The position numbers and the translations under genes are program-made. From Octopus vulgaris (Eukaryota): DNA of 64,000 bases. The DNA is taken from assembly GCA_951406725.2 (NCBI GenBank), contig OX597827.1:27280001-27344000 (forward strand), in the 5' to 3' direction. The notes beneath the pieces are model-generated. The model saw only the letters and a program-made list of their open reading frames with translations, ran no database searches and was not told the DNA's origin. Within the stretch, counting starts at the first letter, position 1. Each line of letters opens with the position of its first letter. Below, in pieces: positions 3,829-38,999 of the stretch.

Positions 3829-5374
3829 TATTAATTTCTAGAAATAATGAATGCGATTTTCGTCATGGACATGCAAAAACTATACCAGAACCACATTTAA
3901 AAGTCAAAATAATCTGATGATAATTTGAGAAACTTCAGAATTTCAGAAGATCCGCGACTCGTGCGGCCTTTTAAAGGAATCCCTCTGTCGTTGCTTCGTT
4001 TTAATGCGATTTGTGACTTTCACCATAAAGCTCTTTTAATTCATCCTTTGAACAATTAGAAAAAGAAAAATCAGGTTAGATTTTTATATAAAGAGAAAAG
4101 ACTTGTAGCTTGCATCCTTTCAAAAGATATAAGCCTGATGTCTGAATGCGATTTACACGTGTACAGGCCATTAACCTCGTTTCTCTTCTCCCTCTCTCAC
4201 ATACACACGCCTGCGTGCACGCACACCTCACTCTCTCCAGATAGAAGTCCTTGGGACATTAGCTTTGCTTTCTTTTATTTCGTTCTGTATTTTAGGGGGT
4301 TTTCTTTTAGATTTTAATACACTAATACAGAAAGATTATGTGTACTAATTGCGTGGATAATTTCAATCCAGTTTGCTATGTATAACATATATCTGAGTTG
4401 ACCTTACCGCATTTGCATTGGGAACATTTGGATATTCGTCGAAGCATCGTCAGTTATCACATTCCCTTTATATGTTTGTATTTATACACACACTCAGATA
4501 TATACATATATACATAACATACAAGCATACACATACACACATAGACATATCGATGTCCCATAATGTATTGCGTTAAATGCTTTGCGGCTGCGTTATTTCC
4601 TCCAGGGAAGGTCCTTTTAATGCAGTAGTGTGTTGAAAAAACACAGCATACTTCTATGAAAGGCGAAACAAATCTCTCCGGACGCGAACGACAAGGACAG
4701 ATATGTGTATTTCGCACTTATTTCTGGTCATCGATGTTATTAATTCGAATTAATCTCGAGGTCGAATCGATGATAATGTTTACATTACAGGACCGCTCCT
4801 AAGTAAAAATTTAAATTATACATACATACATACATCTGTTGTGTTTTCTCTTTTGTGTTTTCATGTCTGGATTAACTATATATATATATATAAATGTGTG
4901 TGTGTCTGTGTTTGTCCCCCCAACATCGCTTGACAACCGATGCTGGTGTGTTTACGTCACCGTAACGTAGCGGTTCGGCAAAAGATACCGAAAGAATAAG
5001 TACTACGCTTACAAAGAATAAGTCCTGGGGTCGATTTGCTCGACTAAAGGCGGTGCTCCAGCATGGCCGCAGTCAAATGACTGAAACAAATAAAAGAGTA
5101 TACATACATACAGACAGACAATTTGATTATACGTCGAGTTGCAATATAAACAATTTTACATTGAACTGCAGGGGATTACTGAAGACGTTTCTAGAGTCGA
5201 GTCCCTATTCATTATTCTTTAACAAGAATCGTGTTGACAGTCACGTCGGAGTTTCAATCTTGACTGAGTTGTTAAGAGCGGCGAATAGATTGCTCTGAGG
5301 AAATCGTTCTAGCTCTCTGTATTCTGGGTTCAGATCCCGCTCTGGTCAACTTTGCTTTTCTTCAATTCAGCGTC

Positions 5375-5623
5375 GTGACTGCCCCGTAAGGGAATTACAC
5401 CACCGCCATTTAGCCCTAGGAAACATCTGTCGGCTTTGACACATTTTCTGTGTCCTTATATTTGCAAAGGGGAGGCAATCACCCCCGCTAGTCCCAGCTG
5501 GCGGGGGTGATTGCCTCCCCTTTGCAAATATAAGGACACAGAAAATGTGTCAAAGCCGACAGGAGACGTCGATGTTTCCTAGGGCTAAATGGCAGTGGTG
5601 TAATTCCCTTACGGGACTGTCTC
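5375..5623. repeat. ~120-bp-arm palindrome related to the 38.5 kb and 19.4 kb elements
   Basis: Arms around loop TCCCAG (5492-5497); 9-bp deletion in left arm; shares CTCCCYTT..ATAAGGACAC..GACGTCGATGTT..GGGCTAAAT. Confidence 0.88.
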
Positions 5624-6663
5624 ATTGAGTTGACAGTATACGACCACTATATCGCCCCACCACCGCTTATGTCTCTCTGAGACATTCAGAAATTCAATAT
5701 TTCTAATATTAATTTTGTATTAACAAGAAATTATTCATCCACCAATGCTGTATTGATCATTTATTACAAAACTAACAAAACCTTTAAGGGTTTGAGTTTC
5801 ACAGTCGTCGAAGACCTCGCCCCACCGTACTTTAAATCCATGTTGTGAACTAGAGAGAGAAAGGGAATGAAGTTTGGATTTGTGGTGTAAGGGATTGGGA
5901 TTAAATATTCTCTTTGGACGTTTTTGGTGTACAAATATAAGTAGGCATAGGAATGGCTGTGTGGTAAGTAGCTTGCTTACGAACCACAAGGTTCCGGGTT
6001 CAGTCCCACTGCGTGGCACCTTGGTCAAGTGTCTTCTACTATAGCCTCGGACCGACCGAAGCCTTATGAGTGGATTTGGTGTGTATATATGTATATATGT
6101 GTGTGTTTGTGCTTTTCCCTCCCAATATCGCTTGACAACCGATGCTGGTGTGTTTGCGTTCCTGTAACTTAGTGGTTCGGCATAAGAATAAGTCCTGGGG
6201 TCGGTTTACTCGACTATAAAGGCGGTGCTCCAGCTTGGCCGCAGTCAAACGACTGAAACAAGTAAAAGAGATTAAAAGAGTGCGGGTGATTGGTGTATCT
6301 CTACGATATTACTTGTCTCAGGGTGGGGATTTTGCTGGGGTAGGCTTTACGATTGTTGTAATTTTGCCGAGTCGTAGCAGTATGGCTGAATGATTTAAAA
6401 GTTCGTTTCACAGCCCGGAGGTCTCAAGTTCGATTTCGCTTCGTGGCATTTTAGATAAAATGTCATTTTCTTTAGCCTCTGGTCGGCTCATTCCTGGTGA
6501 AGGAAATCAGAAAGGCGGATACTGTACAGAAGCCTGCCAGATGGATTGCACCTGTAATTCGAACGTTACAATCTTATTACCACAAACACACACACGCGCG
6601 CTCGCACACACACATGTACAAACACTCACACAAACACTGATTCTCCTTGAGAATTACGTTAAG

Positions 6664-34021: not shown

Positions 34022-34050
34022 GTATCTATACAATATGTTACATTACTCGG

Positions 34051-34124
34051 TAGTCAAGATAAAACTCTGAGTTTCAGATGCCGAAGTGGAAATCCACAAC
34101 ACCATCTCTTCGGTTATCTGGCTA
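34051..34124 (-). ncRNA. Type I hammerhead ribozyme of P1 (predicted)
   Basis: Same sequence as 14779-14852, in the 3' UTR and sense to the ORF. Confidence 0.75.
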
Positions 34125-34313
34125 TTTGAAAACGTTATGAAAAAATACCGTTAAAAATGAAGGGAAATTACTCTGTTATAACTCTGCTTTGCCTGCGTAC
34201 TTATACATCGCTCGCATTTTTCGTCATAAAAATTATATAAAAATACATAAAAAAATATAAAAATATATAAAAATATATAAAATCTTCTTGGGACATAACA
34301 CAGAAAGCATGTT

Positions 34314-35832
34314 CTATCCGTTTTCTTTAGGGGACCAAAAACGTAACAGAAATTTAGTCACATGTGGGCATGATCCGAAAAGCTCTGTTCTTGTATTTAG
34401 ACATGTGGTAGGGTCTAAGCTGCTTTTCCAGATAAGCCATCTCTCCATGTCGCATAAACCGCACCTTCCGCTGCCGTTAGTATAGGGCTTACATCTGGCC
34501 AAAATCTTCCATTGTATGTTATAATCGACACCTTTATCTCTTAAAGACCAAATATGATTGGATAATTGTGTCGCTTTTCTTTTGTTCCAGTGCCTAAAGC
34601 TCAAAGTGTGGTTATTGAACCTGGCCTTGAAATTACCCTCTGTCAGGCCCACGTATTTCTTCGTCGAAACGGTGTCTTTAGTGGTTATAGAGTTTACGGT
34701 AGCTTCATATATGATGGTCTTGGACATGCAAGCTCCATTTAGCGGGCACAATTCTTTATTCCTGCATGAACAGCTGTTTTCTTCTTGTGTTTTTTGTATG
34801 TTATGATTGATTATGTTTTTAAAATTTGTAGTTGAACTAAAACTAATTTTTAAATTGTGTCTATTGAAGAGTTTCCTATAAGCATGGTTAACTGGAAAAT
34901 GTCTATCTATCAGTGCTAGGAAATATTTACCTATATTGAAGGCCACCTCGGGTGAGTAAGGGGGCGTAAACCAGATGACCTTCCTATTTCTATTATTCCT
35001 TTTCCTTATTGTTGGGCTGGTGATAGGTGTATATTTTATTTTTTCGCTAAAACCACTATCTTTTAAAGCTTTATTATAAACTGGGGCAACGCTATTGAAG
35101 ATGTCCTCATTAGATGAGAGGCTAGAAATCCTCTTACTAATATTTTTAACTAAATTTTTGAATACTATAGGGGGATGGCATGAACCTACATTAATATAAC
35201 TTAGTCTATCATTGGGCTTCCTATAAGGCTTATAAATATTATTATTAAGATCTAAGGAAACGTCTAAGAAATTGACAACCGTCAGGTTAGTGTCTATAGT
35301 TATACTAAGTCCGAAGTGTTTCATTAACTGGATAATATCCTTCCTAAAACGATCTTGTGCTGGTCCATTTGTATTAGCTGTTAAGGCGAGGGCATCATCT
35401 TTGTAGATGGCGAAATGTACGTTAGGGAATGTCTTACTGAAGGTATCTAGGAGAAAGAGTCCAATTAGAACACAGATGCCTGCCCCATCATATGAACCCA
35501 TGCTCACATCGAAAGCGCCCTCCGTGTCGGTGTTTTTTATCCACTTTGCATTCTCACTGAAAAGTAATGTCTTTCTAGCATGGAAGATTATATCCTTATC
35601 ATTGGTACTAATTTCTATGAAGTCACTAGCGAAGATTAGGGCTTTATCTAGCAGTTCTTTAGAGATAGAGGCATAAAAATCAACAATATCGAATTGTGTA
35701 AACCTCGCTTTTTTCTTATTCTTAATAGCTTTAAACCAGTCTACGACTTCTATACTATTGGACCATTGCACTAGCCTAGTATCGGTCTTAATTTTCGTAT
35801 TTATTTTATCTAAAATTTCTTTGCTAATAATC

Positions 35833-35834
<2 letters not shown>
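34314..35834 (-). CDS. Penelope-like element ORF (RT + C-terminal GIY-YIG endonuclease), 5'-truncated at a (TA)n tract; probably Naiad-type
   Basis: Open frame with RT motifs FDIVDFY, MGSYDGA, YKDD and FLDV. GIY-YIG part: IIYEA...YVGLT...FKARFNNH, with CSC..CPL..C before and CGLC..E...LN.R.E...CPH after. The frame stays open upstream of the called start to the (TA)n at ~35835. Clade assignment is inferred from motif pattern. Confidence 0.93.
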
Positions 35835-35878
<44 letters not shown>

Positions 35879-38320: not shown

Positions 38321-38466
38321 GCCACTACTGCTACTACACCAAATATAGGTGCAGGCATGGTGTGGGGTAAGAAACTTGCTTTTTGAAGTATACATACATA
38401 CGTATATATGTGTATATATATGTATGTATGTGTGTCTGTGTGTGTGTGTATGTATATATATATATA

Positions 38467-38514
<48 letters not shown>

Positions 38515-38526
38515 TATATATATATA

Positions 38527-38953
38527 GCAATAATAATTCTCTAAAAGAGATATAGACAGTAACTGCTCGATAACATAAGGGACTAAAGCCATCTGAATAT
38601 GGCTAGGGACAGGGCAGGGTGGTGGGGGTGTTACTGTTGCATTTAGCCCCAGGCGAACATCGACGTCACCAGAAAGGCTCGACACCGTCACGGTGTCCTT
38701 ATCCTGCAAAGGGAGGTAATTCCCCGATGAAGCGGAAACCACACGCCGACGATAGGCAATACACCTTGAAACCATGGTCCGTGTGTGGTTTCCGCTTCAT
38801 CGGGGAATTACCTCCCTTTGCAGGATAAGGACACCGTGACGGTGTCGAGCCTTTCTGGTGACGTCGATGTTCGCCTGGGGCTAAATGCAACAGTAACACC
38901 CCCACCACCCTGCCCTGTCCCTAGCCATATTCAGATGGCTTTAGTCCCTTATG

Positions 38954-38957
<4 letters not shown>
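38527..38957. mobile_element. Fold-back element in (TA)n whose loop is a hammerhead core
   Basis: Near-perfect arms 38570-38745/38780-38957; left end 43 nt longer. Confidence 0.9.
38740..38785 (+). ncRNA. Minimal type I hammerhead ribozyme (predicted)
   Basis: CACACG-CCGACGA-T-AGG caataca CCT-T-GAAA-CCATGG-TC^CGTGTG. Confidence 0.85.

Positions 38958-38999
<42 letters not shown>

What the first reader, a model, noticed from the sequence alone, without database searches (positions are those of the whole stretch)
38527..38957. DNA palindrome whose loop is exactly a hammerhead catalytic core
Seen: ~176-bp arms are separated only by CCGACGA-stem II-GAAA-CCATGG-TC. The left arm is the reverse complement of everything 3' of the predicted cleavage site (after 38779), joined through the stem I sequence CACACG. 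Known: PLEs carry type I hammerheads and often have inverted 5' ends. Inference: cDNA primed from one TA end ran off at the ribozyme-generated RNA 5' end and annealed via stem I complementarity to a second cDNA from uncleaved RNA. The ribozyme would then set the inversion breakpoint. I know no description of this link.
Basis: partly seen in the sequence, partly recalled or inferred. Interest (0 to 1): 0.9.

Follow-up and report, generated by a model that had tools for sequence, protein, structure and literature searches.

The report
Mirror-image insertion of a hammerhead repeat
This palindrome is one of at least 525 insertions of a small mobile repeat carrying a predicted self-cutting RNA motif, and because the two mirror-image halves join at scattered points in the other copies, the join beside the predicted cut site here is likely chance rather than the ribozyme's doing.

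Summary
The palindrome and the hammerhead-like loop are real: 175-bp perfect arms and a 38-nt spacer. The element is one insertion of a 360-nt tandem repeat, with at least 525 insertions in (TA)n. It looks like a non-LTR retrozyme with Penelope-type ends. In 181 sampled insertions, 143 are head-to-head. In 138 of 139 readable ones a short end (+178, counting from the predicted cut) is paired with a 44-nt-tail end (+222). Only 6 of 324 arm 5' ends lie at +1..+5 (4.3 expected), none at +1, and 182 of 185 arms that reach the site read through it. Only two junctions genome-wide put the core in the loop. Here the left arm stops at +4 in a 7-nt microhomology supplied by stem I. Likely mechanism: two cDNAs, primed at two fixed sites on RNA from one source, join by microhomology wherever they stop. 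Unexplained: five ends at exactly +2 (not replicated), and a replicated pile-up at +11..+60. The core is a U4C variant; cleavage is untested. The scan noted a similar family in a shark genome.

The parts
38526..38744 (-). Inverted arm (tail arm): monomer +4 to +222, 219 nt, 3' end in (TA)n
38526..38569 (-). 44-nt tail (monomer +179 to +222), present on this arm only; Penelope-type tail
   Evidence: same end in 76 of 77 partner arms called in the first sample
38738..38744 (.). Junction: 7-nt microhomology ACCACAC, an inverted match built into the monomer (319-325 against +4..+10, part of stem I)
   Evidence: this exact junction occurs once in the genome
38738..38957 (+). Direct arm (short arm): monomer 319-360 then +1 to +178, 220 nt, 3' end in (TA)n
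38740..38785 (+). Type I hammerhead-like motif: stem I 38740-45/38780-85, core CCGACGA 38746-52 (U4C variant), stem II 38753-67, GAAA 38768-71
   Evidence: sequence; covariation between subfamilies
38771..38778 (+). Self-complementary helix III ACCATGGT, predicted to pair between two ribozymes (dimer)
38779..38780 (+). Predicted cleavage site (after GUC); defines monomer +1 = 38780
   Evidence: inference from hammerhead numbering; activity untested
38450..38525 (.). (TA)n-rich target, left flank
38958..38998 (.). (TA)n target, right flank

Best explanation
This is one head-to-head insertion of a 360-nt hammerhead-bearing repeat, likely made when a Penelope-type enzyme primed two cDNAs from the two strands of a (TA)n target and the two cDNAs joined by a 7-nt microhomology that stem I happens to supply. 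Shown: the family, its two fixed 3' ends (+178 and +222), their one-of-each pairing, the scattered junctions, the shared source of both arms. Inferred: both target strands are nicked; one 3'-OH primes at +178 and the other at +222 on uncut multimeric or re-ligated circular RNA; each cDNA runs until it stalls, usually through the ribozyme site; the two 3' ends are joined blunt or by 1-4 nt of microhomology, and by longer matches where the folded RNA has built-in inverted repeats. The ribozyme's likely job is earlier: cutting tandem transcripts, as a dimer, into monomers that can circularise. It does not choose the breakpoint. The mobilising enzyme is not identified.
For: 360-nt tandem unit in arrays. 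525 exact short-end-plus-TA matches. 143 of 181 sampled insertions are inverted. One short and one tail end in 138 of 139 with a readable outer end (exception L182; 4 ran off the fetched stretch). Junctions cover the whole monomer; +1..+5 holds 6 of 324 ends against 4.3 (overall) or 7.8 (local) expected. 182 of 185 arms cross the site. Arms share a source: 1027 concordant against 12 discordant calls at 11 polymorphic sites, 392 discordant expected for random arms. Simple fold-back from either arm is impossible by length in 59 of 143. Microhomology is mostly 0-3 nt; several long ones sit on built-in inverted repeats (262/230, 185/111, 306/11, and 319/+4 here). An autonomous Penelope-like family in the same genome shows the same short-end/tail-end head-to-head layout with junctions deep in its ORF. 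In vitro, a Penelope-like protein cleaves and extends both target strands from two adjacent RNA sites that bound the tail, and hammerhead mutants do not change insertion (PMC11167929).
Against: Five ends fall at exactly +2 (0.86 expected, unadjusted P 0.002), although 4 came from the first sample and 1 from the second, and position +31 has 7. A first-lap pile-up at +11..+60 replicates (P 0.0003 and 0.002 against +61..+120) and sits mainly in the 50 of 143 insertions where neither arm crosses the site; cut linear monomers could give this class. Near-symmetric junctions are in excess (29 of 143 within 10 nt, 10 expected; 6 exact, 0.6 expected), which fold-back would also give. No autonomous partner sharing the repeat's sequence was found. 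No read-level confirmation of this locus was obtained. Circular against linear template is unresolved.
Confidence: 0.8

Rival explanations
1. One reading: ribozyme cleavage makes the RNA 5' end, one cDNA runs off there and anneals through stem I to a second cDNA, so the ribozyme sets the inversion breakpoint of the family.
For: This copy's left arm ends 3 nt from the site with stem I as microhomology. A second copy has an arm ending at +2 joined at the core (L130). In R2 elements a ribozyme does define the 5' junction (PMC3774820, search listing only).
Against: 6 of 324 ends at +1..+5, 0 at +1; 182 of 185 arms cross; 2 core-in-loop junctions genome-wide; 1 exact +1 and 4 exact +2 ends genome-wide against 1.75 expected per position by chance and about 29 if 10% of junctions were set there. 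The older subfamily with the more canonical core shows no end at +1..+5 in 12 loci (approximate tiling).
Confidence: 0.03
2. Minority version: most templates are uncut or circular, but a few per cent are ribozyme-cut; this copy is one run-off at +1/+2 whose last 2-3 nt were trimmed on annealing at ACCACAC.
For: Spike of 5 ends at +2 among 0-2 per position at +1..+13; further ends at +1 (L132), +2 (L138) and +3 (L205); the sequence here is compatible with a 2-3 nt flap.
Against: The +2 spike did not replicate (1 against 0.37 expected, P 0.31); genome-wide count 4 against 1.75 expected; +31 has more ends and six other positions as many; the 7-nt match is available without any cleavage; the core has two departures that should slow cleavage.
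Confidence: 0.12
3. Fold-back: one cDNA snaps back on itself (or an antisense RNA self-primes) and is copied back, making the palindrome from a single priming event; the short end is then made by a nuclease cut.
For: Excess of symmetric junctions, 6 exact; arms nearly identical; self-priming on an antisense template was proposed for head-to-head Penelope repeats (PMC3846280, passages).
Against: 59 of 143 insertions cannot arise by fold-back from either arm. In this copy the direct arm holds 42 nt (319-360, the ribozyme core) that the inverted arm lacks, so it cannot be a copy of it.
Confidence: 0.04
4. Assembly or library artefact (fold-back chimera).
For: Palindromes between microsatellites are hard to assemble; no reads were laid on this locus.
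Against: The arms have different, family-typical ends and different flanks; the inverted arm has a tail absent from the other; 143 of 181 independent loci share the layout with different junctions.
Confidence: 0.01

Closest known systems
Non-LTR retrozymes of animals (Cervera and de la Pena 2020, PMC7229834, passages; Li et al. 2026, bioRxiv 10.64898/2026.07.22.740005, part 1 of 5 and passages)
   Same: Non-coding tandem repeat of 150-450 bp with a type I hammerhead in each unit; mussel families are 350-390 bp; proposed to be non-autonomous Penelope derivatives.
   Different: The passages read do not describe head-to-head pairs, fixed short and tail ends or (TA)n targeting for retrozymes ('inverted' occurs 0 times in the first paper and once, in a reference title, in the second). 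This family's youngest core is CCGAYGA.
Penelope-like element insertions with inverted pLTR and tail (Arkhipova et al. 2013, PMC3846280, passages; Craig et al. 2021, PMC8557442, passages and section 11)
   Same: Inverted 5'-truncated copy at the 5' end, head-to-head; tail at one end only; (TA)n targeting; hammerheads in the repeats; hammerhead pairs on opposite strands 100-700 bp apart were already seen (PMC4209133).
   Different: No ORF; tail is 44 nt against the published 30-40; here the one-short-one-tail pairing and the junction spread are counted.
PAc Penelope/Poseidon element in vitro (Frangieh et al. 2024, PMC11167929, parts 1-2 of 4)
   Same: Both strands cleaved and extended; two adjacent internal start sites bound the tail; unprocessed RNA is the main substrate; hammerhead mutants do not alter insertion.
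   Different: That paper saw no difference in start site between strands, whereas here each insertion pairs one of each site almost without exception; the parts read do not derive inverted structures.
R2 retrotransposon HDV-like ribozyme (PMC3774820, search listing only)
   Different: Different ribozyme and element; here junctions do not track the cleavage site.

Membership tests
Type I hammerhead ribozyme (dimeric metazoan form) | Core C3-U4-G5-A6-N7-G8-A9 | tested here: not met
   U4 is C in this copy and in the two commonest variants (146 and 58 copies). Older subfamilies have U4 with U3-A8 or U3.G8. U4C is a recorded natural variant with much lower in vitro activity (PMC3088659, passage). 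So: a variant, not the consensus core.
Type I hammerhead ribozyme (dimeric metazoan form) | G12-A13-A14, A15.1-U16.1 pair and cleavage triplet NUH | tested here: met
   GAAA...GTC; invariant in alignment A1 and in the variants listed
Type I hammerhead ribozyme (dimeric metazoan form) | Helix I of about 6 bp | tested here: met
   CACACG/CGTGTG here, CATACG/CGTATG in the older subfamily: a compensatory change
Type I hammerhead ribozyme (dimeric metazoan form) | Helix II of about 4 bp closed by G10.1-C11.1 | tested here: not met
   3 bp (AGG/CCT) with U.U at 10.1-11.1 in this subfamily; GAGG/CCTC in the older one
Type I hammerhead ribozyme (dimeric metazoan form) | Short palindromic helix III for dimer formation | tested here: met
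   Four different palindromes across subfamilies: CCATGG, CCTAGG, CCGG, CTGCAG; predicted duplexes -8.3 to -11.4 kcal/mol
Type I hammerhead ribozyme (dimeric metazoan form) | Match to an Rfam hammerhead model | tested here: not met
   No hammerhead family among 107 matches at E<=1 or 6 at E<=10
Type I hammerhead ribozyme (dimeric metazoan form) | Self-cleavage | not testable with these tools
   Needs a cleavage assay
Non-LTR retrozyme | Tandem units of 150-450 bp, each with a type I hammerhead motif | tested here: met
   360-nt unit, arrays with up to 10 near-full copies seen; motif is a variant, see above
Non-LTR retrozyme | No encoded RT | tested here: met
   tblastn with P0001 against the 182 loci kept gave 4 hits, all more than 1 kb from the repeat; only this one RT was used as query
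Non-LTR retrozyme | Expressed as circular RNA | not tested
Penelope-like element insertion signature | Head-to-head inverted 5'-truncated copy | tested here: met
   143 of 181 insertions
Penelope-like element insertion signature | Tail at one end only | tested here: met
   138 of 139 readable pairs; 44 nt
Penelope-like element insertion signature | (TA)n target | tested here: met
   The anchored end was selected for TA; the unselected partner ends also lie in (TA)n in nearly all rows
Autonomous Penelope-like element | RT plus GIY-YIG ORF between pLTRs | tested here: not met
   No ORF in the element; no similarity to the neighbouring element's 3' region (score 44, shuffles mean 39.7, max 57)

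The most novel reading that the evidence does not exclude
Ribozyme cutting does leave a mark on the insertions, as a bound rather than a breakpoint. About a third of insertions (neither arm crosses the site) would be copied from ribozyme-cut linear monomers, where both cDNAs stall in the 5' rod at +11..+60 or occasionally run off at +2. The rest would be rolling-circle copies of the re-ligated circle. One RNA family would then record both of its forms in the genome, each insertion made by one enzyme dimer that primes one strand at each of two fixed sites.
Probability: 0.2. Interest if true: 0.6.

Novelty: new member of a known kind. Interest (0 to 1): 0.33.

Why it matters
The proposed new link (ribozyme sets the inversion breakpoint) does not hold, so the copy itself is an ordinary member of a known kind. 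The family is still useful. It gives insertion-signature evidence (tail, TA target, head-to-head pairs) that an animal retrozyme-like repeat is mobilised by Penelope machinery, which a 2026 preprint argues from phylogeny. The near-strict pairing of one short and one tail end, from one source, is a countable genomic prediction for the two-strand, two-site priming seen in vitro. It also shows a young, successful subfamily with a degenerate ribozyme core, which makes 'does mobility need cleavage?' testable.

Tried and rejected
Rfam scans found no hammerhead match; the identification rests on motif and covariation. Pfam gave no family for the neighbouring ORF P0001. A +2 peak in the first sample was tested on an independent sample and genome-wide and did not replicate. 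Of 7 genome-wide hits for +2 ends, 3 were internal variants (one SNP, two GT expansions) and were not counted. A step in arm-length correlation exactly at the cut site was sought with shifted boundaries; the odds ratio peaked 40-60 nt beyond it. Linear against circular template: same-lap arms were not more alike than different-lap ones (0.63% against 0.45%) and most within-locus variants are singletons (135 against 21 shared sites, 10 of these from one locus, L131), but a few variants are shared by the outermost monomers of both arms; left open. The neighbouring autonomous element was tested as source of the repeat: no similarity. Public runs holding the stretch were listed but no reads were laid, so they are no evidence for this locus or for expression. 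Literature searches returned no title or abstract start linking hammerhead cleavage to Penelope inversion junctions or describing this family; most listed papers were not opened, subscription journals are not covered, and no supplements were read, where octopus or retrozyme family lists may lie.

Full report
Observation. The window holds a perfect 175-bp inverted repeat, 38570-38744 against 38783-38957, between (TA)n tracts. The 38-nt spacer contains a hammerhead-like core: stem I CACACG/CGTGTG, CCGACGA, a short stem II, GAAA, CCATGG and TC, with predicted cleavage after 38779. The left arm begins at +4 relative to the cut (coordinates below are in the monomer, +1 = 38780), inside a 7-nt microhomology ACCACAC. 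It also carries 44 nt at its outer end that the right arm lacks.

What it is. A search of the own genome (2.8 Gb; probably a cephalopod, a guess from recalled SINE resemblance, untested) gave 1165 candidates, 40 scored, many spaced 360 nt apart. The unit is a 360-nt non-coding repeat with the motif in each copy. The exact short end followed by TA occurs 525 times. I took the first 100 of these 525 (contigs C1-C3) as a first sample. A second sample came from two flank-restricted searches: 69 of 85 short-end hits and 31 of 38 tail-end hits; the rest were in the first sample or not fetched. From the second 100 I dropped 19 before counting: 12 of an older subfamily about 80% identical, 6 fragments under 30 nt, 1 duplicate. 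Junctions were called by split alignment. Seven loci in the first sample and 13 in the second were complex or long and were set by hand from alignment tiles, so their positions are approximate.

Architecture. 143 of 181 insertions are head-to-head pairs and 38 are single arms. Of 139 pairs with a readable outer end, 138 have one arm ending at about +178 and the other at about +222; L182 is the exception. The anchor fixed one end, so the test is on the partner. This is the Penelope signature: an inverted 5'-truncated copy, a tail at one end only, and (TA)n targets (PMC8557442; PMC3846280). In vitro, the PAc protein cleaves and extends both target strands and starts at two adjacent internal sites that bound the tail (PMC11167929). 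Both arms of an insertion come from one source: 1027 concordant against 12 discordant calls at 11 polymorphic sites, with 392 discordant expected for random pairs, and 58 of 120 arm pairs identical. Fold-back from either arm is impossible by length in 59 of 143.

The ribozyme. The fold is supported by changes between subfamilies: the 3-8 pair is U-A, U.G or C-G; stem I is CATACG/CGTATG or CACACG/CGTGTG; helix III is one of four different palindromes, as expected for the dimeric type I form (PMC4209133). The youngest subfamily, including this copy, has U4C and U.U in place of G10.1-C11.1. U4C is known to lower activity in vitro (PMC3088659). Rfam does not detect it. I call it a hammerhead variant of untested activity.

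Arm 5' ends cover the whole monomer. In both samples together, +1..+5 holds 6 of 324 ends; 4.3 are expected from the overall stop rate and 7.8 from the local rate; none is at +1. 182 of 185 arms that reach +5 on the first lap read through. Genome-wide patterns that require two mismatched bases upstream found 1 end at +1 and 7 hits at +2, of which 4 are true ends. Chance gives about 1.75 per position, and about 29 would be expected if 10% of junctions were set there (my estimate of detection, 0.75 x 177/187). The window's junction is unique, and only two junctions genome-wide put the core in the loop. The 7-nt match used here is one of several inverted matches built into a strongly folded monomer (z -6.35). 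Others were used as junctions at 262/230, 185/111 and 306/11. An autonomous Penelope-like family with at least 150 identical C-terminal matches shows the same short/tail head-to-head layout, with junctions hundreds of bases inside its ORF. Inversion therefore does not need a ribozyme end. The PAc work also found that hammerhead mutants insert normally.

Results against my reading. Five ends fall at exactly +2 (0.86 expected; unadjusted P 0.002). Four are from the first sample and one from the second (P 0.31); +31 has seven and six other positions have five. Ends pile up at +11..+60 on the first lap in both samples (41/6409 and 32/4616 at-risk nt, against 26/9796 and 22/7341 at +61..+120). The pile-up is strongest where the partner also stops short (2.15 per 100 nt, a figure inflated by that conditioning), weak where the partner crosses (0.17 against 0.08, P 0.07) and absent in single arms. 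The stretch +2..+48 is predicted to pair with 279-327, so a structural roadblock could explain it; so could cut linear monomers. Only 1 of the 100 arms in the both-short class ends within +1..+10, which argues against run-off. Symmetric junctions are in excess (29 of 143 within 10 nt, 10 expected), and arm lengths correlate (rho 0.62). Coupled synthesis or a fold-back minority would both give this. Circular against linear template is unresolved. No reads were laid on the locus.

Mechanism. Shown: family, two fixed 3' ends paired one of each, TA targets, common source, scattered junctions, microhomology at this junction. Inferred: a Penelope-type RT/endonuclease acting in trans nicks both strands of (TA)n, primes at +178 and +222 on uncut or circular RNA, and the two cDNAs are joined where they stall. 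The ribozyme likely acts upstream, processing tandem transcripts. This copy looks special only because both arms happened to stop on the two strands of stem I.

Verdict. Real feature, known kind (retrozyme-like non-autonomous Penelope derivative), headline mechanism not supported. An earlier scan note on a shark genome described a similar palindromic family and pointed me to PMC3846280; I did not test its data. Interest 0.33, for the counted pairing rule and the testable residuals.

Noticed in passing
window 34030-35864 (-): 5'-truncated Penelope-like element between TA tracts: 516-aa open frame with RT, CxCX5C linker, C-terminal GIY-YIG, CxxC and CxH motifs, fitting the Hydra clade description (PMC8557442 section 11). 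Very young and abundant: 150 of 150 scored matches 100% identical over 168 aa, 22401 candidates. Copies form head-to-head pairs with a short end and a tail end of about 66 nt. Candidate mobiliser, not shown.
   Followed up: partly
window about 34055-34125 (-): In that element's 3' region, a minimal hammerhead-like motif CCGAAGA ... GAAACTC with the same C at position 4 as the repeat's young core. Read by eye; not tested.
   Followed up: no
window about 5370-5640: A second, older head-to-head palindrome about 75% identical to monomer +22..+108, with a 12-nt loop and no ribozyme core at the centre.
   Followed up: partly
L147, L148, L154, L183, L198 and others: Older subfamily about 80% identical, with the same short end, core TTGAYAA (U3-A8), a 4-bp G-C-closed stem II and loop CCGG. 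The younger subfamilies drift to TTGAYGA and then CCGAYGA, so the core departs from consensus while the family keeps spreading.
   Followed up: partly
L066, L068: Arrays of 10 and 5 near-full monomers across both arms with 12 fixed differences from the reference and no variable site, as rolling-circle copying of one monomer would give.
   Followed up: partly
L086: A cluster of variants at +51..+56 shared only by the junction-proximal monomers of both arms, suggesting conversion or fold-back across the junction.
   Followed up: no
L134, L138: Two single-arm copies start at exactly +2 and are joined to non-TA sequence ending in AG.
   Followed up: no
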